A DNA stretch of 13,815 nucleotides from UHGV virus genome UHGV-1810643; one strand, 5' to 3'. This stretch comes from a virus. This document shows, piece after piece, positions 1 through 10,304 of this stretch (positions are counted from its first letter, which is position 1; each line of letters begins with the position of its first letter). Position numbers and translations under genes: made by a program. The notes beneath the pieces were generated by a model, which worked only from the letters and a program-made list of their open reading frames with translations, was not told where the DNA came from and searched no databases.

Positions 1-130
1 AGCTGCGGTTGCGTTCCTGAATGGTTACTACGATTGGTTTGGTTGGGTCTGGAAGAATTTGCTGGATAGCTTGAATGGCGTTCTGCTGATGGATGGGGCT
101 TCTTAGTTCAAACGTTAGTTTCCTCACCAT
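1..130 (-). CDS. ninB: NinB-like protein, N-terminal 43 codons (gene continues beyond window start)
   Basis: Minus-strand translation from ATG at 130..128 gives MVRKLTFELRSPIHQQNAIQAIQQILPDPTKPIVVTIQERNRS, close to lambda NinB N-terminus as recalled; AGGAG 5 nt upstream. Confidence 0.8.
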   Translation of the reverse strand, partial: MVRKLTFELRSPIHQQNAIQAIQQILPDPTKPIVVTIQERNRS

Positions 131-272
131 TTACACTCCTGTAATCGTCAAGTGCAGCTGCAATAGTCCCTATCGGGTCATGGTCTTGCCCGATAATCTC
201 ATTTACGTTTTCATCTTCTTCCACACCGAAAAAGAATCGCAGGGCTAACATGATTTCTTCGTATGCGCTCAT
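108..272 (-). CDS. Hypothetical small acidic protein (54 aa)
   Basis: ATG at 272..270 with AAGGAG 5 nt upstream, 2 nt after the stop of the 106-aa ORF; below the ORF-track size cutoff; overlaps ninB start by 23 nt. Confidence 0.4.
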   Translation of the reverse strand: MSAYEEIMLALRFFFGVEEDENVNEIIGQDHDPIGTIAAALDDYRSVNGEETNV

Positions 273-274
273 AC

Positions 275-595
275 TCACTCCTTCACTTTGACTCCAGCAG
301 CGCGGATGTTTTCCTCATAAGCATCCATTGCATCACCGAAGCCATTGGAATAATCAACAGTAAACCCTTTGGCTAATGCTTCTCTGCTGTCGATAAACTT
401 TGGCGCGGTTATTTCAATAGCTGCTCGCGATGCCTGCCACGTTTGCCAGTGGCCTTGAACATCGTCCATCACGTATTGACCACCAATATCACCACTGCCA
501 ATTTCATGGTGATTTTCAGGGTAACGGATAAGGTCTGAAGATTCGCCTCCACGTCGCAACCAACTTTCTTCAAACTGCTTTCTTGATTCGTCCAT
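275..595 (-). CDS. Hypothetical acidic protein (106 aa), not Ren-like
   Basis: ORF track; GAGGGT-type SD upstream of ATG at 595..593; 17 nt after upstream ORF; no similarity recognised. Confidence 0.6.
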   Translation of the reverse strand: MDESRKQFEESWLRRGGESSDLIRYPENHHEIGSGDIGGQYVMDDVQGHWQTWQASRAAIEITAPKFIDSREALAKGFTVDYSNGFGDAMDAYEENIRAAGVKVKE

Positions 596-612
596 CGATA
601 CTTACCCTCAGT

Positions 613-819
613 TCAACTCACAAAACGCCACGCCATTTTTGCTACAGCGACAGGCATAACACCGATAATCACCCAGACAAATGCAGCGCCAAACAACGTA
701 TACCATGGATCTTTACCGTCATTCACAAGGCGAATGTAGCTATGCAGAACAATAAAAAACGTCAGAAGAATCCATCCAACGCCAACGCATTTGAGTGCGA
801 CGAGCATAAACTCAACCAC
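613..819 (-). CDS. Small membrane protein (68 aa from GTG, or 64 aa from ATG at 807), two hydrophobic segments
   Basis: ORF track; GGGGGAGAG SD 6 nt before GTG at 819; hydrophobic stretches ILLTFFIVL and FGAAFVWVIIGVMPVAVA. Confidence 0.5.
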   Translation of the reverse strand: MVEFMLVALKCVGVGWILLTFFIVLHSYIRLVNDGKDPWYTLFGAAFVWVIIGVMPVAVAKMAWRFVS

Positions 820-838
820 GATTTACTCTCCCCCAAAT

Positions 839-865
839 AAAAAGGCCTGCGATTACCAGCAGGCC
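839..865 (-). terminator. tR2-like rho-independent terminator (minus strand)
   Basis: Perfect 7-bp stem ggcctgc (844..850) / gcaggcc (859..865), 8-nt loop, T-run on minus strand (forward aaaaa 839..843); same context as lambda tR2 as recalled. Confidence 0.7.
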
Positions 866-895
866 TGTTACAAGCTCAGTGATGTAGATGGTCAT

Positions 896-2776
896 TTAAT
901 ACTCCGTCACGTTTTCCTGTCGCCACGCCTCGTCATATTCCGATTTCGGCATATTGGCGATGTAGCTATATGGCGATCCTGATTCAAGTTGCAGGAACTG
1001 GTGCGATTGCTCGTCAAGGAACAACGGGACACCACCTTCCCAACCTTCGCCGTTTCGTTGTTTTTCAAGCATCAAAACAGATGCCGGAGACGCCAGTACC
1101 TGTTCGTCCTTCTCTGACATCTTTTCACCACTCTGAACTCTCTGTAACGCTCTCTCGCGAGCCTTGTTACGCCAGATGATGAAAAGGTTGTCTGTCAGGT
1201 CTGTTATCGCTCCAGAGCCTTTTACGTCCATTTTCCCGGTTGGTTTTTCTTCGCTGTCTCCTTTTCGCGAGTGAGTAACGAGAATGACGTGGGAGTTTGT
1301 TTTGTTTTTGAAGTCGCAAATCGAGTCAACAAACGCCTTCTGCCCGTTATAGTCATCGTCGCCTATGCCACATTTCATCAGGCTGTCGATGATGAATAAC
1401 TGGATCCCGTATCGGCGGCGAGCGTAGTCGAATATTTCGATCAGCCTGTCGGCTTTCGCCGTTCCGGTCAGGCCAAACACCCAAAGTCTTTCGTCATAAA
1501 ATTTAAATGCAGAGTCAATTTCCAGCACTGGCGGCATCTTGCAGCACGTTGCCTGACGGGTAAGGCGCTTAAGGAGAATACCAGGCTTCAGCTCAAGTGA
1601 CGCGATGCACGTCTTCACACCCTGACGCATTGCCTCAAGTGCCATATGCCCGACAACCTCCGTTTTTCCGTGACCGTTCACACCATTGACCAGCGTCAAC
1701 TCGGCCTCACGGAACTGGAATTTATCTGCCAGAGATTCCCACGGTGGATTAAACAGATACTGCTGCTTGCCGTAGAAAGCGTTGATAGTGTCCTGGTAAA
1801 ACTCTCGCGCGCTGTAGAGTTCTTCAGGATCAAAGTAGGATGCCGTGCCGATGTACTGCCAGATTGCATCCTCGGTAACACCGTTCATCAGGCATTCGTT
1901 GATGTCTTTGTACGGCAGAGTAACAAGACGGCAACGATGTTCACCGAGTCGGCTTGCGATTTCCCTTGCGGCTTCACGACCAACATCATCAACGTCCATC
2001 GAGATGAATATTTCCTCAAACCTGTCGAGGTTGTGATACTCAAACTCAATCCACTGTTGCTTAGCGCCTTTCCCTCCACCAAACGGTACGGATAACGCCG
2101 AGATGCCGTATTGCGCATAGCTCATACAATCAATTTCGCCTTCGCAAAGTACAACCGCCCTCACGCCAGCGTCCAGAGCCTGCCATCCGAACAGACAAGG
2201 TTCGCAATCACCTTCTGCCATAATGACTTTCTTCCCGTCCGGGCGCTCAGTGCTGATTCGCTTGACCTGCAACAACTCACCATCGCGTTTGTACGGAATC
2301 ACCAGAGCATCCAGTTCCCGCTCTCCATTCCACACCTTGCCGCTGACAACCTCGTAGCGCTTTACGATTTCTGGCGATATGCCACGCGATTGCAGGTACT
2401 CAAGATGGGATTCTGTTCTGGTAACGTAGCGGGCGATTTTCTTGCGATCAGGTCTGGAGAATTTTTTCTCACGTCTGGCATCGAAATGGTGATCGTCATC
2501 CTTGATACCGAGAAATGCTTTCGCTTCCTGCATAGCCTGATGCAGGTTAATTCCACGACATGCCATCCACAAATCAAGCATGTCACCGCCGTCTCCCTCA
2601 GCGAAATCAGCCCATTTTTTCTTGCCGCTAAGGTTGACCTTAAGGCTGTTTCCCTTGTCACCGTTGATGTTACCGGCAACCCACTCATGCCCCTCTTTCT
2701 TGCCGTTTGGCAACAGGTGCGGAGCCACCCTGTCAACCTGCGCCCAAAGCAGGTCGCTAAGTTCACTTGGCGTCAT
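896..2776 (-). CDS. Bifunctional primase-helicase (626 aa): TOPRIM primase domain plus C-terminal Walker A (DnaB/T7 gp4-like) helicase
   Basis: ORF track; TOPRIM-like motif CEGEIDCMS; Walker A GVNGHGKTE; occupies the position of lambda P. Confidence 0.88.
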   Translation of the reverse strand: MTPSELSDLLWAQVDRVAPHLLPNGKKEGHEWVAGNINGDKGNSLKVNLSGKKKWADFAEGDGGDMLDLWMACRGINLHQAMQEAKAFLGIKDDDHHFDARREKKFSRPDRKKIARYVTRTESHLEYLQSRGISPEIVKRYEVVSGKVWNGERELDALVIPYKRDGELLQVKRISTERPDGKKVIMAEGDCEPCLFGWQALDAGVRAVVLCEGEIDCMSYAQYGISALSVPFGGGKGAKQQWIEFEYHNLDRFEEIFISMDVDDVGREAAREIASRLGEHRCRLVTLPYKDINECLMNGVTEDAIWQYIGTASYFDPEELYSAREFYQDTINAFYGKQQYLFNPPWESLADKFQFREAELTLVNGVNGHGKTEVVGHMALEAMRQGVKTCIASLELKPGILLKRLTRQATCCKMPPVLEIDSAFKFYDERLWVFGLTGTAKADRLIEIFDYARRRYGIQLFIIDSLMKCGIGDDDYNGQKAFVDSICDFKNKTNSHVILVTHSRKGDSEEKPTGKMDVKGSGAITDLTDNLFIIWRNKARERALQRVQSGEKMSEKDEQVLASPASVLMLEKQRNGEGWEGGVPLFLDEQSHQFLQLESGSPYSYIANMPKSEYDEAWRQENVTEY

Positions 2777-2880
2777 GATTCCCTCAGATTGAGATTTTTA
2801 AACCAGAAATCGACAAACGAAATACTTAACCAGCCGTGGTTATAACCAGCGACCAGTAGCGATTTGATTTTTGATTTCAT
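2773..2880 (-). CDS. Possible 35-aa coupled mini-ORF between O-like gene and primase-helicase
   Basis: ATG at 2880..2878; stop overlaps primase-helicase start in an ATGA arrangement; weak SD; below ORF-track cutoff. Confidence 0.25.
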   Translation of the reverse strand: MKSKIKSLLVAGYNHGWLSISFVDFWFKNLNLRES

Positions 2881-2883
2881 GGT

Positions 2884-3744
2884 TCACCTGTCGAAAAACA
2901 CGTAGCCAGTTTTCGATACGGTGATTGCGGATGATGGTTTGGATTGTGGTTGAATGGTTTCTGGCTTTTCGTCGTTCCAGCGTTGACCGTTCAGGTAGCT
3001 CGATGGTAACAACCTGTCGAATCCGAACTGCTTACCATTCCTGCATGCGATGTCTTCTGCCAGCATCGTGGCAAACTCGCTTGCCGTCCCCCTGGTAGTT
3101 TTACGCCATTCCCTGAACTGTGTTCTGAATGCCGAAGCTGCGTTTTTCTTCCCGGCTTTCCGCATGCCTGCACACCAGAATATTTCCTCGAATGCCTTGT
3201 CGGTTTCTTCGTGACGGTCATGTGATTTTTCACACTCCGTCCGAACACTTTCGGACATAGTGTTTTTATTATTTCTTTTTTCTTTTGTAATAGTTTCTTT
3301 TGTGTGTCCCTGTTTTGGTGACAGCGCTGTCACCGTTTTGGTGACACTTTTTGTCACCAATGCAGTGACATTATCACCAGAGTAGTGACACCCTTCGATT
3401 TGCCATTCCTCGATGTTCTTGTTAGGCCCGATTTGCTGGCCTTCGCGAAGGATAACCTTCATCGCGATAAGCTCATTCTTGGCCTTGTTTACCTTCTGTC
3501 TTGGCAGCCTGGTAATTTGAGCTAACTGACTATCAGAGATGCGATCCATCTTTTTACCGTAGCCGTATGTTTTACGGCATATGGCGTGGGCAACCTTGCT
3601 CTGATTTTTCGTTAAATCTGCGCCGATAAGCTCTTCATACAGGGCATTTGCAAGACGGGTATAACCATCTTCAACTTCTGCCACACGACGCTCCACAGGC
3701 CGTTGTGAAGGCCTTAAATGTGTTACGGTTGCAAGATTACTCAT
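2884..3744 (-). CDS. Replication initiator, lambda O-like N-terminal DNA-binding domain with divergent C-terminal domain (286 aa)
   Basis: ORF track; N-terminal region [26 protein letters not shown]...[16 protein letters not shown] resembles lambda O as recalled; AAGGAG SD; iteron origin inside the gene. Confidence 0.85.
3263..3393. repeat. Replication origin: four GTGACA-containing iterons (3317..3393) next to an A/T-rich tract (3263..3300)
   Basis: GTGACA at 3318, 3341, 3365, 3385 with 20-24 bp spacing; perfect palindrome GGTGACAGCGCTGTCACC at 3317..3334; A/T-rich run on the side expected for an ori-lambda-type layout. Confidence 0.7.
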
Positions 3745-3883
3745 GACCTTTCTCCTTCTGCATCAGCTTCACTTTTTCCAACTCAGCCCGGAATCGACCA
3801 GGCTGCTTGAAGCTGGACAGGAAGCGATCACGTAGTATGTGTTTGTGAATTTTGTCCTGGTAAGGACTGAGTTGTTTTGTCAT
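3737..3883 (-). CDS. Possible 48-aa basic protein in the cII-O intergenic region
   Basis: ATG at 3883..3881 with AGGAG 5 nt upstream; stop overlaps the O-like start; below ORF-track cutoff. Confidence 0.3.
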
Positions 3884-3917
3884 AATTACTCCTGTGGATT
3901 GATCCAGTCTTTCTACA

Positions 3918-4196
3918 TCAGGCCTCGAAGAATTCGCCGTTCTTCGGGGCTTTTTCTTTTGTCAGCATTCTGGCTACTTGCTTAGCCAGTTCCGCCAACT
4001 CCTCGTCTTCAACACCCCATTCCAGCACAGCCAGAAGCATGGCCATCTTTGGGATAAAGCTGTCTTTCCATCGCGAAATTTGCGATTCATTAATCCCTAA
4101 CGCGTCGGCAACCTTTCGCTGACCACGTACAGCAATTCGATTCAGGATGTTGCTTGTAATTGCATTCGCTTTCTTGCGAGTACTTGTAAGTTGCAT
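3918..4196 (-). CDS. cII: CII-like transcriptional activator (92 aa), divergent from lambda CII
   Basis: Start set at ATG 4196..4194 because the upstream leader matches the lambda cII leader as recalled; conserved SQISRWK helix; ORF-track upstream extension rejected. Confidence 0.85.
3923..3960 (+). terminator. oop-like antisense terminator overlapping the 3' end of cII
   Basis: Plus-strand hairpin cctcgaagaa / ttcttcgggg (one mismatch), 7-nt loop, followed by ctttttctttt; antisense to cII C-terminal codons, as for lambda oop. Confidence 0.55.
4174..4187 (+). promoter_or_regulatory. pRE-like CII binding site (TTGC-N6-TTGT) inside the cII 5' coding region
   Basis: TTGC at 4174..4177 and TTGT at 4184..4187, same distance from the cII ATG as the lambda pRE TTGC repeats (recalled); oriented toward cro antisense / cI. 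Confidence 0.5.
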
Positions 4197-4275
4197 ATGT
4201 AAGTATTTCCTTAGATAACAATTGATTGAATGTATGCAAATAAATGCATACACCATAGGTGTGGTTTAATTTGAT

Positions 4276-4307
4276 GCCCTTTTTCAGGGCTGGAATGTGT
4301 AAGAGCG
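4276..4307 (-). promoter_or_regulatory. nutR (boxB and boxA)
   Basis: Minus-strand boxB GCCCTGAAAAAGGGC (4276..4290) and boxA CGCTCTTAC (4299..4307). Confidence 0.8.
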
Positions 4308-4314
4308 GGGTTAT

Positions 4315-4524
<210 letters not shown>

Positions 4525-4531
4525 TTAGTAC

Positions 4532-4599
4532 ATGCAACCATTATCACCGCCAGAGGTAAAATAGTCAACACGCACGGTGTTAGATATTTATCCCTTGCG
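4532..4599. promoter_or_regulatory. OR1-OR2-OR3 operators with divergent pR (minus) and pRM (plus)
   Basis: OR1 tatcaccgccagaggta 4532..4548; OR2 4556..4572; OR3 tatcccttgcggtgata 4579..4595; pRM -35 tagata 4571..4576 and -10 tagatt 4594..4599. Confidence 0.9.
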
Positions 4600-4612
4600 G
4601 TGATAGATTTAA

Positions 4613-5329
<717 letters not shown>

Positions 5330-5441
5330 TCGGCAAGGTGTTCTGGTCGGCGCATAGCTGATAACAATTGAGCAAGAATCTTCATCGAATTAGGGGAATT
5401 TTCACTCCCCTCAGAACATAACATAGTAAATGGATTGAATT

Positions 5442-6281
5442 ATGAAGAATGGTTTTTATGCGACTTACCGCAGCAAAAATAAAGGGAAAGATAAGCGCTC
5501 AATAAACCTGTCTGTTTTCCTTAATTCTCTGCTGGCTGATAATCATCACCTGCAGGTTGGCTCCAATTATTTGTATATTCATAAAATCGATGGAAAAACT
5601 TTTCTCTTTACCAAAACAAATGACAAGAGTCTGGTTCAGAAGATAAATCGCTCTAAAGCTTCAGTTGAAGATATTAAGAACAGCCTCGCAGATGACGAAT
5701 CATTGGGATTCCCATCTTTTTTGTTTGTTGAAGGCGACACCATTGGTTTTGCCAGAACTGTTTTCGGGCCGACCACATCCGATCTGACAGATTTTTTAAT
5801 CGGGAAAGGAATGTCATTAAGCAGTGGAGAGCGCGTTCAGATAGAGCCACTGATGAGGGGAACCACCAAAGACGATGTTATGCATATGCATTTCATCGGC
5901 CGAACAACGGTGAAGGTAGAAGCCAAGCTACCTGTATTTGGCGATATATTAAAGGTCTTAGGGGCAACAGATATTGAAGGGGAGCTTTTTGACTCATTGG
6001 ATATAGTCATTAAGCCAAAATTTAAAAGGGATATAAAAAAGGTTGCCAAGGATATTATTTTTAACCCGTCACCTCAATTTTCAGACATTAGCCTGCGGGC
6101 AAAAGATGAGGCCGGAGATATTTTAACAGAACATTATCTATCAGAAAAAGGCCATCTCTCAGCGCCTCTGAACAAGGTCACCAATGCTGAGATAGCTGAA
6201 GAGATGGCATATTGCTACGCAAGAATGAAAAGTGATATACTGGAATGTTTTAAAAGGCAGGTGGGCAAAGTTAAGGATTAA
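5442..6281 (+). CDS. rexA: RexA (279 aa)
   Basis: ORF-track protein beginning MKNGFYATYRSKNKGKDKRSINLSVF matches lambda RexA as recalled. Confidence 0.95.
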   Translation: MKNGFYATYRSKNKGKDKRSINLSVFLNSLLADNHHLQVGSNYLYIHKIDGKTFLFTKTNDKSLVQKINRSKASVEDIKNSLADDESLGFPSFLFVEGDTIGFARTVFGPTTSDLTDFLIGKGMSLSSGERVQIEPLMRGTTKDDVMHMHFIGRTTVKVEAKLPVFGDILKVLGATDIEGELFDSLDIVIKPKFKRDIKKVAKDIIFNPSPQFSDISLRAKDEAGDILTEHYLSEKGHLSAPLNKVTNAEIAEEMAYCYARMKSDILECFKRQVGKVKD

Positions 6282-6296
6282 TTATCAGGAGTAATT

Positions 6297-6731
6297 ATGC
6301 GGAACAGAATCATGCCTGGTGTTTACATAGTAATAATTCCTTACGTTATCGTAAGCATTTGCTATCTCCTTTTCCGCCACTACATTCCTGGTGTTTCTTT
6401 TTCAGCTCATAGAGATGGTCTTGGGGCGACATTGTCATCATATGCAGGAACCATGATTGCAATCCTGATTGCTGCCTTGACGTTTCTAATCGGAAGCAGA
6501 ACGCGCCGACTGGCCAAGATTAGAGAGTATGGGTATATGACATCGGTAGTTATTGTCTATGCCCTTAGTTTTGTTGAGCTTGGAGCTTTGTTTTTCTGCG
6601 GGTTATTGCTTCTTTCCAGCATAAGCGGCTACATGATACCCACTATCGCCATCGGCATTGCCTCTGCATCGTTCATTCATATATGCATCCTTGTTTTCCA
6701 ACTATATAATTTGACCAGAGAACAAGAATAA
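6297..6731 (+). CDS. rexB: RexB (144 aa), polytopic membrane protein
   Basis: ORF-track protein matches lambda RexB as recalled; several hydrophobic segments. Confidence 0.95.
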   Translation: MRNRIMPGVYIVIIPYVIVSICYLLFRHYIPGVSFSAHRDGLGATLSSYAGTMIAILIAALTFLIGSRTRRLAKIREYGYMTSVVIVYALSFVELGALFFCGLLLLSSISGYMIPTIAIGIASASFIHICILVFQLYNLTREQE

Positions 6732-6756
6732 CCCGGCCTCAGCGCCGGGTTTTCTT
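6732..6756 (+). terminator. Rho-independent terminator after rexB (tImm)
   Basis: Stem cccggc (6732..6737) / gccggg (6743..6748) followed by ttttcttt. Confidence 0.8.
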
Positions 6757-6904
6757 TGCCTCACGATCGCCCCCAAAACACATAACCAATTGTATTATTG
6801 AAAAATAAATAGATACAACTCACTAAACATAGCAATTCAGATCTCTCACCTACCAAACAATGCCCCCCCTGCAAAAAATAAATTCATATAAAAAACATAC
6901 AGAT

Positions 6905-6967
6905 AACCATCTGCGGTGATAAATTATCTCTGGCGGTGTTGACATAAATACCACTGGCGGTGATACT
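6905..6967 (+). promoter_or_regulatory. OL3-OL2-OL1 operators and pL promoter
   Basis: OL3 6905..6921, OL2 6925..6941, OL1 6949..6965; -35 ttgaca 6939..6944, -10 gatact 6962..6967. Confidence 0.9.
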
Positions 6968-7007
6968 GAGCACATCAGCAGGACGCACTGACCACCATGA
7001 AGGTGAC

Positions 7008-7037
7008 GCTCTTAAAAATTAAGCCCTGAAGAAGGGC
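7008..7037 (+). promoter_or_regulatory. nutL (boxA and boxB)
   Basis: boxA cgctcttaa 7008..7016; boxB gccctgaagaagggc 7023..7037. Confidence 0.85.
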
Positions 7038-7235
7038 AGCATTCAAAGCAGAAGGCTTTGGGATTGGATGAATGAGCAGGCTGATGCTCGACCAATGTAT
7101 AAACAGCGCTCATGGCAAGCAGTAACCAATCTGCGCCTCAAGACAGCGTCACTGGTAGTGCGGGCGCTCTAACCAGTAAGCCGGGGTTCAGCGCCGGCCA
7201 TCCAATCACCAAAGCTAACTGACAGGAGAATCCAG

Positions 7236-7562
7236 ATGGATGCACAAACACGCCGCCGCGAACGTCGCGCAGAGAAACAGGCTCAATGGAAAGCAGCAAA
7301 TCCCCTGTTGGTTGGGGTAAGCGCAAAACCAGTTAACCGCCCTATTCTCTCGCTGAATCGCAAACCGAAATCACGAGTAGAAAGCGCACTGAATCCAATA
7401 GACCTTACAGTGCTGGCTGAATACCACGAACAGATTGAAAGCAACCTGCAACGTATTGAGCGCAAGAATCAGCGCACATGGTACAGCAAGCCACGCAGTG
7501 AAATGGGGGTGACTTGTGTTGGTCGCCAGAAAATGAAATTAGGCAGCAAACCACTTATTTGA
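7236..7562 (+). CDS. N: Antiterminator N (107 aa) with variant C-terminus
   Basis: ORF-track protein MDAQTRRRERRAEKQAQWKAANPLL matches lambda N at the arginine-rich N-terminus; last ~25 residues differ from lambda N as recalled. Confidence 0.9.
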   Translation: MDAQTRRRERRAEKQAQWKAANPLLVGVSAKPVNRPILSLNRKPKSRVESALNPIDLTVLAEYHEQIESNLQRIERKNQRTWYSKPRSEMGVTCVGRQKMKLGSKPLI

Positions 7563-8995: not shown

Positions 8996-9601
8996 ATGAG
9001 CAAAGAATTTTACGCAAGACTGGCAGCCATTCAGGAGAATCTGAACGCGCCAAAGAATCAGTACAACTCATTCGGTAAATATAAATACAGAAGCTGCGAA
9101 GACATTCTTGAAGGCGTTAAGCCGTTACTGAATGGCCTGTTTTTATCAATCAGCGATGAAGTTGTGTTGATTGGTGATCGGTATTACGTGAAAGCCACGG
9201 CAACTATTACCGATGGCGAAAACAGTCATACGGCAACCGCACTAGCACGAGAGGAAGAAAGCAAGAAAGGAATGGATTCTGCACAAGTTACGGGCGCTAC
9301 AAGCTCTTATGCACGCAAGTATTGCCTCAATGGTTTGTTCGGCATTGATGATGCGAAAGATGCAGATACAGACGAGCATAAACATCAGCAGAGCGCAGCA
9401 GCAAAGCAATCAAAACCATCACCTACACCTGAACAGGTTCTAAAAGCATTCACTGACGCAGCATTGCAGAAAAACACCGTGGAAGAGCTTAAACAGGCGT
9501 TCGCCAAAGCGTGGAAGATGCTCGAAGGCACACCGGAGCAGCAAAAAGCGCAGGACGTTTACAACATCAGACGAGACGAATTAGAAGGAGCGGCTGCTTA
9601 A
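8996..9601 (+). CDS. erf: Erf single-strand annealing recombinase (201 aa)
   Basis: Protein from MSKEFYARLAAIQENLNAPKNQYNSFGKYKYRSCEDILEGVKPLL matches P22 Erf as recalled; start at internal ATG 8996 rather than ORF-track 8966. Confidence 0.9.
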   Translation: MSKEFYARLAAIQENLNAPKNQYNSFGKYKYRSCEDILEGVKPLLNGLFLSISDEVVLIGDRYYVKATATITDGENSHTATALAREEESKKGMDSAQVTGATSSYARKYCLNGLFGIDDAKDADTDEHKHQQSAAAKQSKPSPTPEQVLKAFTDAALQKNTVEELKQAFAKAWKMLEGTPEQQKAQDVYNIRRDELEGAAA

Positions 9602-9984
9602 TGGCACATTCGATTACTGTAAGACTAAACAAGCCCGTAAGAGAGTTTCAGGCCGGGGAAAATATCGGATTCAACATCCGTGCTGGCGTTCAGTATTACG
9701 ATCGCCAGACAAAAAAGAAAGAATGGACAAACTACAGCGCCGTTGTATTTGCCAAGCCGGGAGCGCAAGCGGATTACTACCGTAGTGTTCTTGTTGAAGG
9801 TGGCATTGTAGAAATTACCGGAGAAAACATCAGGGTTGATGTTTATCAGGGGCAAAATGGTCAATCAATCACTCTTGAATTACTGAATGCAAAGATTGGA
9901 TTTGCAGCTTCAGGAAATGGCCCGCAGCAGCAAAGTAGTAATCATCAAAATCATCCTGAATACGACGATTCAATTCCCTTCTAA
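9601..9984 (+). CDS. Short SSB-like protein (127 aa) with C-terminal acidic DDSIPF tail
   Basis: ATG at 9601 overlapping the erf stop; OB-fold-like core; C-terminus PEYDDSIPF resembles the E. coli SSB tail DDDIPF. Confidence 0.7.
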   Translation: MAHSITVRLNKPVREFQAGENIGFNIRAGVQYYDRQTKKKEWTNYSAVVFAKPGAQADYYRSVLVEGGIVEITGENIRVDVYQGQNGQSITLELLNAKIGFAASGNGPQQQSSNHQNHPEYDDSIPF

Positions 9985-10007
9985 ATTAGCAAAATAAGGA
10001 TTCCATT

Positions 10008-10304
10008 ATGCCAGCGCCTCTGTATGGTGCGGACGACGCGCGCCGCTGTTCCGGCAATTCCGTATCGGAGGTGCTGGATAAATTCAGAAAAAACTACGAT
10101 CGGATAATGTCGCTACCGCAGGAAACGAAAGAGGAAAAGGAATTTCGCCACTGTATATGGCTTGCAGAGAAAGAAGAACGCGAGCGAATTTACCAGACAT
10201 CAATCCGACCATTCCGCAAAGCCACATATACCAACTTCCCTGAATATATCGAACCGCGCCTGCGTAATTACCGCTCACGCTATGGCGCTATCAGTAATGA
10301 CTGA
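10008..10304 (+). CDS. Abc2-like anti-RecBCD protein (98 aa), tentative
   Basis: ORF track; AAGGA SD; size and position after erf consistent with P22 abc2; identity from memory only. Confidence 0.5.

What the first reader, a model, noticed from the sequence alone, without database searches (positions are those of the whole stretch)
7063..7206. Replaced N-leader segment between nutL and the N start
nutL (boxA/boxB) and the N ribosome-binding region match lambda, but the roughly 144 bp between them differ from the lambda leader I recall, which is about 103 bp and forms the RNase III-processed stem. The block ends in a 7-bp inverted repeat (gattgga at 7062..7068, tccaatc at 7201..7207), comparable to the GGTGTGTG / CACACACC repeat that closes the lambda stem. 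This may be a different sequence doing the same regulatory job. It also holds a 34-codon ORF (7068..7172) with no convincing SD.
Basis: partly seen in the sequence, partly recalled or inferred. Interest (0 to 1): 0.45.

Follow-up and report, generated by a model that had tools for sequence, protein, structure and literature searches.

The report
Folded RNA cassette in N leader
The stretch between nutL and the N start of this lambda-like prophage is not the lambda hairpin but a different, compactly folded RNA module from an apparently undescribed tRNA-shaped family found in many phages, plugged into the same closing helix that lambda uses for RNase III control of N.

Summary
The window is identical to lambda from pL +1 to 7062 and again from 7207 to the N ATG. 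Between them, 144 nt (7063-7206) replace 104 nt of lambda.

The block is a structured RNA module, not filler. It has a 9-bp closing stem P1 (7062-7070 / 7199-7207) that extends the 7-bp helix shared with lambda (7055-7061 / 7209-7215), with the same bulged A. It also has four internal hairpins, a candidate pseudoknot and a candidate loop-loop contact. Across 42 distinct homologues, 94% of pair cells are paired and 15 pairs carry compensatory changes.

The same module sits between nutL and N in phages with at least five different nut/N types. It also occurs outside N leaders: in Jilinvirus and Uetakevirus phages, and in related forms next to tRNA and tmRNA genes. A conserved frame (P1, P2, P5, complementary loops) carries at least nine unrelated central inserts. 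Rfam 15 has no match.

The most likely role here is the leader-trailer-type helix that RNase III cuts to control N, probably releasing a stable RNA with a function of its own. Neither RNase III cleavage nor any function was tested. The 34-codon ORF is not conserved.

The parts
6939..6967 (+). pL promoter (TTGACA, 17 nt spacer, GATACT). The transcript starts at 6974 (ATCAGCAGG...).
   Evidence: Promoter scan. The sequence is identical to lambda from +1.
7007..7037 (+). nutL: boxA CGCTCTTA (7007-7014) and boxB GCCCTGAAGAAGGGC (7023-7037), both identical to lambda.
   Evidence: Sequence. Lambda 'Nutl' annotation at the equivalent position. Identity run.
7055..7061 (+). 5' strand of the outer helix (GCUUUGG). 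It is shared with lambda, HK544, CL707, IME10-type and, as GGUUUGG, P22 leaders.
   Evidence: This helix covaries among pL-type copies (helix 1, for example AUUUUGG/CCAAAAU).
7062..7070 (+). 5' strand of P1 (GAUUGGAUG). It occupies the place of lambda nutL boxC (GGUGUGUG).
   Evidence: Four of 9 pairs covary in A4 and 8 of 9 across scaffold members.
7074..7089 (+). P2 hairpin (GAGCA / UGCUC) with loop GGCUGA. It is preceded by the invariant AAU (7071-7073) and followed by GACC.
   Evidence: Pair 21/34 is CG in 24 and AU in 16 sequences. GCACA/UGUGU in L187.
7105..7111 (+). 5' strand of the candidate pseudoknot (AGCGCUC). It pairs with 7162-7168 (GGGCGCU) in the P4 loop.
   Evidence: Helix 5: 100% of cells paired in 42 sequences. 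All three variable positions change only between Watson-Crick and G-U pairs. There is no double change, so the pairing is consistent but not proven.
7114..7137 (+). P3 hairpin (GGC..GCAG / CUGC GCC) with loop UAACCAAU.
   Evidence: RNAalifold. Pair 67/78 is CG in 24 and AU in 17 sequences.
7151..7177 (+). P4 hairpin (ACUGGUAG / CUAACCAGU). Its loop carries the 3' strand of the pseudoknot (7162-7168).
   Evidence: Pair 103/116 is AU in 31 and GC in 11 sequences. Pair 98/122 is CG in 39 and GC in 2.
7180..7198 (+). P5 hairpin (GCCGG / CCGGC). It abuts the 3' strand of P1 with no linker. Its loop contains UCAGC (7188-7192), complementary to GCUGA (7080-7084) in the P2 loop.
   Evidence: The stem is nearly invariant in A4 but is GUCGG/CCGAC in L272 and ACCGG/CCGGU in L187. 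Five loop-loop pairs are possible in 40 of 42 sequences while the rest of the loop varies.
7199..7215 (+). 3' strand of P1 (CAUCCAAUC, 7199-7207), bulged A (7208) and 3' strand of the outer helix (CCAAAGC, 7209-7215).
7224..7562 (+). N Shine-Dalgarno sequence (AGGAG, 7224-7228) and the N gene (7236-7562, 108 aa).
   Evidence: ORF list. RefSeq annotation 'antitermination protein N'. Comparison with lambda N.

Best explanation
The block is a self-contained structured RNA module, about 146 nt including its closing stem. It sits in the variable 'slot' of the pL leader between nutL and the N ribosome-binding site.

Its closing stem P1 stacks on the 7-bp helix that this leader shares with lambda. 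Together they make a helix of about 16 bp with a bulged A. P5 may stack on its inner end.

Proposed mechanism, in steps:
1. N and the Nus factors assemble on nutL RNA and stay with RNA polymerase.
2. The module is transcribed and folds while looped out.
3. When the 3' strand emerges, the long helix closes. This brings nutL next to the N start, as the leader-trailer helix does in rRNA operons.
4. RNase III cuts the helix. This separates nutL and its bound complex from the N mRNA, which tunes N translation as in lambda, and frees the folded module.

The module keeps its internal structure in unrelated phages and in places without N. It therefore most likely has a second function of its own as a stable, tRNA-shaped RNA. 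That function is unknown.

Shown here: the replacement, the fold and its covariation, the contexts and the family.
Inferred: RNase III cleavage, control of N and the release of a stable RNA.
For: - The flanks are identical to lambda and the helix geometry is the same.
- The fold is stable, z = -5.6 on the plus strand against -3.9 on the minus strand.
- On 42 distinct sequences, 94.3% of pair cells are paired against 33-44% when the partners are slid. Fifteen pairs have double changes. None of 500 shuffles reaches any measure.
- The module lies between nutL and the N start, 20-30 nt before the ATG, in phages with lambda-type, IME10-type, P22 gp24-type, L074-type and Erwinia-type nut/N. In each case the outer helix is kept and covaries.
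- Other leaders carry unrelated inserts closed by the same helix. Among 107 sampled lambda-N-type leaders there were 46 lambda-type, 24 HK544-type, 19 window-type and 18 CL707-type inserts.
- A published rRNA analogy exists: boxA, then boxC in the 5' strand of a leader-trailer helix whose RNase III site overlaps boxC, with helix structure mattering more than boxC sequence (PMC10250234).
- A 96-nt RNA from the equivalent P22 leader region accumulates in infected cells (PMC13397905).
- Evidence for an independent function: near-identical copies occur in Jilinvirus ep3, Uetakevirus BUCT554 and a KMi006 prophage far from any N gene. Scaffold relatives lie 6 nt before a tRNA-Tyr, abutting a permuted tmRNA, near tRNA-Gly and tRNA-Thr, in tandem, and at the head of an early operon.
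Against: - No experiment or RNA-seq was available, so RNase III cleavage and control of N are inferred from lambda.
- The details of the lambda mechanism rest on my own knowledge of Kameyama 1991 and Wilson 1997/2002. Those papers could not be opened.
- Outside pL leaders, P1 is only 9 bp with no outer extension. RNase III is therefore unlikely to be the general processing enzyme for the family.
- The ends of the P22 RNA P22B do not match a simple staggered cut in the outer helix. Its 5' end lies inside the insert and its 3' end lies 6 nt beyond the helix.
- The homologues are closely related (mean column identity 88%). Much of the conservation in unpaired regions may be shared ancestry.
- The pseudoknot and the loop-loop contact show no double compensatory change within the family.
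Confidence: 0.6

Rival explanations
1. The module is first of all an independent stable RNA gene, a tRNA-shaped scaffold that carries a functional central domain. The N leader is only a convenient, immediately and strongly transcribed place to express it. Any effect on N would be incidental. Processing would be by the enzymes that mature tRNA and tmRNA (RNase P, RNase E) rather than by RNase III.
For: - The same module occurs at 90-97% identity in non-lambdoid contexts.
- The scaffold has at least nine unrelated centres.
- Relatives lie on the same strand next to tRNA-Tyr, tRNA-Gly, tRNA-Thr and a permuted tmRNA.
- Uetakevirus-type leaders also hold small helices with a T-arm-like GGUUCGAWUCC.
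- The layout resembles a cloverleaf: P1, a 3-nt linker, P2, a centre, then P5 abutting P1, with complementary P2 and P5 loops.
Against: - ARAGORN and the Rfam tRNA model do not recognise it.
- There is no T-loop consensus and no CCA end.
- In pL leaders the module always comes with the outer helix and a fixed spacing to the N start, which points to a cis role there.
- No RNA evidence is available.
Confidence: 0.3
2. Only the closing helix matters. The interior is neutral filler that spread with mosaic recombination.
For: - Four or more unrelated interiors sit in the same slot.
- Lambda's own interior is a plain hairpin.
- The homologues are close relatives.
Against: - The interior helices P2, P3 and P4 each carry compensatory double changes in many sequences.
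- The 7-nt pseudoknot pairing is never broken.
- UCAGC is kept in the P5 loop while the rest of the loop varies.
- The interior is kept where the outer helix and N are absent.
Confidence: 0.07
3. The module is a self-cleaving ribozyme, or a ligand- or protein-sensing switch, that processes or gates the leader.
For: - It is compact, has a multi-helix junction and is probably pseudoknotted, with strongly conserved junction bases.
- It sits where lambda has a processing site.
- In Uetakevirus-type leaders it precedes two intrinsic terminators and then the genes.
Against: - No Rfam ribozyme or riboswitch family matches, even at E up to 10.
- The central domain is interchangeable across the family, which does not fit one conserved active site or pocket.
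- The one antiterminator pairing I looked for, by eye in the ep3-type alignment, is not conserved.
Confidence: 0.08
4. It works at the DNA level or as a coding sequence. Options are a miniature transposable element with terminal inverted repeats, a recombination site, or a gene for a 34-36-residue peptide.
For: - Terminal inverted repeats and a scattered distribution.
- ORFs 7068-7172 and 7112-7222 exist.
Against: - The 'terminal repeats' differ between copies and change in a compensated way (eleven versions). That is selection on pairing, not on a protein-binding sequence.
- The flanks I read show no target-site duplication.
- There are 1-4 copies per genome, with a median of 1.
- The plus strand folds better than the minus strand.
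Confidence: 0.03

Closest known systems
RNase III-sensitive hairpin of the phage lambda N leader (nutL boxC helix)
   Same: - Same position, between nutL boxB and the N Shine-Dalgarno sequence.
- Identical flanks.
- Same 7-bp base helix and bulged A, and a closing helix of similar length (16 bp against 15 bp).
- Same outer framework in the folds of the whole leaders.
   Different: - The interior is unrelated in sequence, 40 nt longer and a five-helix module rather than one irregular hairpin.
- The boxC sequence GGUGUGUG is replaced by GAUUGGAUG, with a matching change in the partner strand.
- Cleavage was not tested.
Leader-trailer helix of rRNA operons (boxA, boxC, RNase III site), PMC10250234
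   Same: - A boxA-bound antitermination complex lies upstream.
- The 5' strand of a long-range helix is G/U-rich.
- A structured RNA is looped out between the strands.
- In rrn the RNase III site is in that helix, and helix structure matters more than sequence.
   Different: - The looped-out RNA is about 130 nt rather than 1.5 kb.
- The antitermination complex here is N-dependent.
- The analogy is an inference.
tRNA and tRNA-like RNAs
   Same: - Cloverleaf-like order of helices.
- The last hairpin abuts the 3' strand of the closing stem.
- The loops of the first and last hairpins are complementary, as the D and T loops interact in tRNA.
- Family members lie beside tRNA and tmRNA genes.
   Different: - Not recognised by ARAGORN or the Rfam tRNA model.
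- P1 is 9 bp, and there is no T-loop consensus, no anticodon arm and no CCA.
- The loop contact would be a 5-bp Watson-Crick helix.
HK022 put RNA (protein-independent antiterminator in the pL and pR leaders)
   Same: A cis-encoded structured RNA in an early leader of a lambdoid phage.
   Different: - put is about 70 nt and has two stem-loops in a V shape.
- There is no sequence similarity to the HK022 pL region.
- The architecture is different.
P22B small RNA from the P22 pL leader (PMC13397905)
   Same: It comes from the equivalent slot between nutL and gene 24. The same outer helix (GGUUUGG / CCAAAGCC) with a bulged A closes that slot.
   Different: The interior sequence is unrelated, and the reported ends do not coincide with the helix.

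Membership tests
Lambda-type N-leader RNase III helix | Lies between nutL boxB and the N ribosome-binding site on the pL transcript. | tested here: met
   boxB is at 7023-7037, the helix at 7055-7215, the Shine-Dalgarno sequence at 7224-7228 and the ATG at 7236.
Lambda-type N-leader RNase III helix | A long closing helix built on GCUUUGG / CCAAAGC with a bulged A. | tested here: met
   The helix is 7 + 9 bp with A7208 bulged. It covaries among homologues.
Lambda-type N-leader RNase III helix | Interior homologous to the lambda hairpin, including boxC GGUGUGUG. | tested here: not met
   There is no similarity over 7063-7206.
Lambda-type N-leader RNase III helix | Cleaved by RNase III, with cleavage relieving N-mediated repression of N translation. 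| not testable with these tools
   This needs rnc+ versus rnc- mapping and N-lacZ fusions.
Any Rfam 15 family | Reaches the family gathering score. | tested here: not met
   No match at gathering scores in the window. Only chance-level matches at E up to 10. The same holds for related loci.
tRNA | Recognised by ARAGORN or Rfam RF00005, with a T-loop and an anticodon arm. | tested here: not met
   ARAGORN found no tRNA in four loci that carry the module (L001-L004). Rfam found no tRNA over window 6950-7300. True tRNAs and a tmRNA were detected next to relatives. The P5 loop is NNNUCAGCN, not UUCRANY.
HK022 put RNA | About 70 nt, two stem-loops, sequence related to putL or putR. | tested here: not met
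   Architecture from PMC9378689. blastn against the HK022 immunity region found nothing relevant.
Intrinsic terminator or attenuator | A GC-rich hairpin followed by a run of U. | tested here: not met
   The scan finds none in 7040-7235. P5 is followed by CAUCCAAUC.
Miniature inverted-repeat transposable element | Conserved terminal inverted repeats, target-site duplication and many copies. | tested here: not met
   The terminal stems vary with compensation. The median copy number is 1 per genome. The flanks I read show no duplication.
Small protein gene | The ORF is kept intact, with codon-phased variation. | tested here: not met
   ORF34 is intact in 29 of 42 variants. Variable sites by phase are 12/11/8.
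Scaffold family defined here (P1, AAU, P2 with loop GGCUGA, variable centre, P5 with loop UCAGC, P1') | All frame elements present in order, with a compensated P1. | tested here: met
   The window copy and members with at least nine other centres share the frame. On the frame alignment 96.2% of cells are paired and 12 of 24 pairs have double changes.

The most novel reading that the evidence does not exclude
Phages of enterobacteria and of some GC-rich hosts carry a previously unrecognised family of tRNA-shaped modular RNAs. A fixed frame (closing stem, two hairpins whose loops can pair) presents an interchangeable central domain. These RNAs are expressed from immediate-early leaders or from tRNA/tmRNA clusters and are cut out by host processing enzymes. 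In lambdoid phages the nutL-N leader serves as a plug-in slot for them. The first RNA made after induction would then deliver both N regulation and a free functional RNA, for example a decoy, sponge or regulator aimed at the host.
Probability: 0.35. Interest if true: 0.8.

Novelty: new variant of a known kind. Interest (0 to 1): 0.6.

Why it matters
The pL leader is the first RNA made when a lambdoid prophage wakes, and its RNase III hairpin is a textbook control point for N.

- This hairpin turns out to be a slot holding several unrelated inserts. In a sample of 107 lambda-N-type leaders, about one in five carried this module.
- The module is a strongly folded RNA that also lives outside N leaders. 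A 'lambda detail' therefore becomes a lead to a family of phage RNAs of unknown function.
- It offers a natural test of the leader-trailer or boxC model on a 130-nt substrate rather than on 16S rRNA.
- It suggests that lambdoid phages express free structured RNAs immediately on induction.
- The element is unannotated in the 142 of 5426 complete E. coli genomes that carry it (no feature under any listed match).
- It has no match in Rfam 15.

Tried and rejected
- Rfam at gathering and permissive thresholds on the window and related loci found nothing relevant.
- ARAGORN does not call the module a tRNA.
- HK022 put was compared by architecture and by blastn and is unrelated.
- The coding test for the small ORFs was negative.
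- A terminator or attenuator reading was rejected: no U-run follows P5. The antiterminator pairing I looked for in Uetakevirus-type leaders, between GCCACC and the first terminator, is absent in L028 and L019 (read by eye).
- A transposable-element reading was rejected because the terminal stems covary.
- Host-RNA mimicry by sequence was rejected: a distant blastn against 5426 E. coli genomes hits only the element itself.
- The boxA-like UGCUCUUU just upstream of the module in Uetakevirus-type leaders was kept only as a note. It occurs in one homologous leader family and lies inside a stem.
- The HK544-type insert shows the same frame with different complementary loops (UAGUC/GACUA). All 19 database copies are at least 99% identical, so no covariation test was possible.
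- The genome-contig scan gave a single hit, an Erwinia prophage.
- Searches of paper texts for the sequence found only unrelated primers.
- Degnan 2007, Wilson 1997 and 2002, and Court 2013 are not held.
- The supplements of the 10,006-candidate viral RNA catalogue are not held. I cannot exclude that this motif is listed there unnamed.

Full report
**Observation.** The window is a mosaic lambdoid prophage of E. coli. It has lambda immunity (cI, rexA, rexB, cro, cII), with pL and N on the plus strand. It is identical to lambda J02459 for 89 nt from the pL start (6974) to 7062, and again for the 29 nt before the N ATG (7207-7235). Between these, 144 nt (7063-7206) replace 104 nt of lambda (one search agrees). 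pL, nutL boxA, nutL boxB and the N Shine-Dalgarno sequence are unchanged. It continues past a bulged A7208 into the 7-bp pair GCTTTGG / CCAAAGC that lambda also has.

**The block is a conserved unit found elsewhere.**
- It occurs at 95-98% identity in the pL leaders of IME10, Stx2c phages, Gally, vB_EcoP-611R6 and Klebsiella phage KO-TP1.
- Its inner 132 nt (7069-7200) occur at 97% identity in the Jilinvirus vB_EcoM-ep3 and at 89.5% in the Uetakevirus BUCT554. In those phages it lies in long non-coding stretches far from any N gene.
- 142 of 5426 complete E. coli genomes carry it, usually once, with no annotated feature under any listed match.
- One prophage (KMi006) has the Uetakevirus-type context.
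- A pattern scan of viral contigs followed by nhmmer gave 79 copies and 38 distinct sequences. Further scans added an Erwinia prophage and metagenome copies.

**Structure.** The plus strand folds into a multi-branch structure closed by the long helix (-73.8 kcal/mol, z = -5.6). The minus strand folds less well (z = -3.9). RNAalifold on 36 sequences gives these helices:
- P1, 7062-7070 / 7199-7207
- P2, 7074-7078 / 7085-7089
- P3, 7114-7122 / 7131-7137
- P4, 7151-7158 / 7169-7177
- P5, 7180-7184 / 7194-7198

I counted this structure on 42 distinct sequences, adding the outer helix, a candidate pseudoknot and a candidate loop-loop contact. The results were:
- 94.3% of cells form standard pairs, against 33-44% when the partners are slid by 1-3 columns.
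- 15 pairs have changes on both sides, against 3-7 when slid.
- None of 500 shuffles reaches any of the five measures.

Clear double changes are AU/UA/GC at four P1 positions, CG/AU in P2 (24:16), CG/AU in P3 (24:17) and AU/GC in P4 (31:11).

The pseudoknot (AGCGCYC 7105-7111 with GGGCGCU 7162-7168) is paired in every sequence. Its three variable positions switch only between Watson-Crick and G-U pairs. This is consistent with pairing but does not prove it. GCUGA in the P2 loop can pair with UCAGC in the P5 loop in 40 of 42 sequences, while the rest of the P5 loop varies freely. The ORF at 7068-7172 is broken or unterminated in 13 of 42 variants, and variation shows no codon phase.

**A wider family.** A scan for the P2 region found copies in which P1, the AAU linker, P2, GACC and P5 are kept but the 86-nt middle is replaced by unrelated sequence of 30-91 nt.
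- I count at least nine other centres: L134, the first copy in L146, L132/L263, L135, L147, L267, L272, L280, L187 and L212.
- P1 has eleven different sequences, each compensated (for example GUUGUGGUG/CACCACAAC, GUGAGGGUG/CGCCCUCAC and GAGAGUG/CACUCUC).
- P2 and P5 also show compensated variants: GCACA/UGUGU, GUCGG/CCGAC and ACCGG/CCGGU.
- On an alignment of the frame alone (12 members, centres cut out by me), 96.2% of cells pair, 12 of 24 pairs have double changes and 8 of 9 P1 pairs covary.
- Minimum-energy folds of the members recover P1, P2 and P5 with one to three hairpins between them.

The order of helices, the last hairpin abutting the closing stem and the complementary first and last loops give a cloverleaf-like, tRNA-shaped layout. 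The RNA is not a tRNA by ARAGORN or Rfam.

Members lie in these contexts:
- 6 nt upstream of a tRNA-Tyr (L272)
- directly before a permuted tmRNA (L280)
- about 150-190 nt from tRNA-Gly and tRNA-Thr on the same strand (L263, L132)
- in tandem (L146)
- at the head of an operon encoding a PD-(D/E)XK nuclease (a weak match, below the Pfam cut-off), a dUTPase and a helicase (L147)

**The N leader as a slot.** Lambda, HK544/mEp213 (232 nt), CL707 (136 nt), HK542 (74 nt), P22 and this window carry unrelated sequences between the same two short strands. Each insert is closed by a long helix.
- In 107 lambda-N-type leaders sampled from viral contigs I found 46 lambda-type, 24 HK544-type, 19 window-type and 18 CL707-type inserts.
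- The window-type module sits in the same place in phages with at least five different nutL/N pairs. It always comes with the outer helix, which itself covaries (for example AUUUUGG/CCAAAAU).
- The HK544-type insert seems to have the same frame with different complementary loops (UAGUC/GACUA). Its database copies are invariant, so this could not be tested.

**Mechanism.** From my own knowledge of lambda (Kameyama 1991; Wilson 1997, 2002; I could not open these papers):
- The leader hairpin brings nutL close to the N start, so that N bound at nutL represses N translation.
- RNase III cuts the base of the hairpin and relieves this repression.
- As I recall, the cuts fall at about +88 and +197. 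That is inside the GCUUUGG / CCAAAGC helix, which is exactly the part every insert type keeps.
- The 5' strand of the lambda stem, GGUGUGUG, is the boxC of nutL.

A published parallel is the rRNA operon. There boxC lies in the 5' strand of the leader-trailer helix, the RNase III site overlaps it, helix structure matters more than boxC sequence, and boxA-bound Nus factors are proposed to hold boxC near the polymerase until the trailer emerges (PMC10250234).

I therefore propose that this block works as a small version of that arrangement. nutL-bound N and Nus factors hold the 5' strand, the module folds while looped out, the 16-bp helix closes, and RNase III cuts it. This sets N translation and frees the module. 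A 96-nt RNA from the equivalent P22 region accumulates in infected cells (PMC13397905). Its ends do not match a simple cut in the helix.

What I have shown is the replacement, the fold, the covariation, the contexts and the family. Cleavage, N control and release of the module are inferred.

**Why I think there is a second function.** The interior keeps its pairings where there is no N, no nutL and no outer helix. The frame recurs with different centres beside tRNA and tmRNA genes. A mere spacer would not behave this way. What the free RNA does is unknown. Because the centre is interchangeable, a single conserved catalytic or ligand site for the whole family is unlikely, but one is not excluded for the window-type centre.

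**Rivals.** I considered filler, ribozyme or switch, put-like antiterminator, terminator, transposable element and peptide gene. Each is weighed in its own section above. None fits as well, and the first two cannot be excluded without experiments.

**Limits.**
- The homologues are close relatives (88% mean column identity).
- The scans were seeded by exact patterns, so they are biased towards conserved copies.
- The frame alignment was assembled by me from excerpts.
- The two tertiary contacts lack double compensatory changes.
- There is no expression or cleavage data.
- I cannot say whether the N-leader variation was discussed in Degnan et al. 2007 (not held), or whether the motif is an unnamed entry in a 2023 catalogue of viral RNA candidates.

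Noticed in passing
window 6973-6979 and 7080-7086: The first bases of the pL transcript (AUCAGC) are complementary to the P2 loop (GCUGAU). They are the same sequence as the commonest P5 loop motif (AUCAGC). The AUCAGCAGGACGC start is shared by lambda, P22 and IME10-type leaders. This could be chance or a competing pairing.
   Followed up: partly
window 7236-7562: N is identical to lambda N for most of its length. It differs at one residue (E for K at position 65) and across the last ~23 residues (SKPRSEMGVTCVGRQKMKLGSKPLI against SKPGERGITCSGRQKIKGKSIPLI), so there is a second mosaic joint inside N.
   Followed up: partly
L002 2380-2500, L033, L035, L132 (leaders upstream of the module in Uetakevirus-type prophages): Just before the module there is a stem, AAGAGCAUUG...CAGUGCUCUU, that encloses a variable insert. 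The insert often has a T-arm-like GGUUCGAWUCC. The 3' strand of the stem reads UGCUCUUU, the core of rrn boxA. The whole leader of about 650 nt runs from a conserved promoter through two intrinsic terminators to small genes, including a Gp49-family gene.
   Followed up: partly
L146 (341-649, minus strand): Two scaffold RNAs with different centres (30 nt and 91 nt) lie in tandem about 75 nt apart in a GC-rich viral contig.
   Followed up: no
L272 2119-2318 and L280 586-1011: A scaffold member ends 6 nt before a tRNA-Tyr gene. Another ends at the start of a permuted (two-piece) tmRNA gene, on the same strand.
   Followed up: partly
L127 456-687 (HK544, mEp213, Sf6 N leaders): The 232-nt HK544-type insert shows the same frame as the window module: closing stem, a 5-bp hairpin, a long centre, then a 5-bp hairpin abutting the stem. 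Its pair of complementary loops is different (UAGUC / GACUA).
   Followed up: partly
L003 2300-2700 (Klebsiella phage KO-TP1 and relatives L031, L036, L042): Here the module lies in a leftward early leader with no recognisable lambda-type nutL upstream. The first gene downstream is not N-like. The leader before the module has two GC-rich stem-loops of unknown role.
   Followed up: no
window 7003-7010 and 7145-7152: An exact 8-nt complementarity links the boxA region (GUGACGCU) and the start of P4 (AGCGUCAC). One position of the partner varies among homologues (C, A or U), so it is probably chance.
   Followed up: partly
window 6730-6751: A two-way terminator-like hairpin lies right after rexB, at the place of lambda tImm. 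It is followed by about 190 nt with no listed feature before pL.
   Followed up: no
window 896-3744 and 8996-10304: The prophage combines lambda immunity with a toprim-domain primase-type replication gene and a P22-like Erf / anti-RecBCD recombination module. It is therefore a mosaic, not lambda itself.
   Followed up: no
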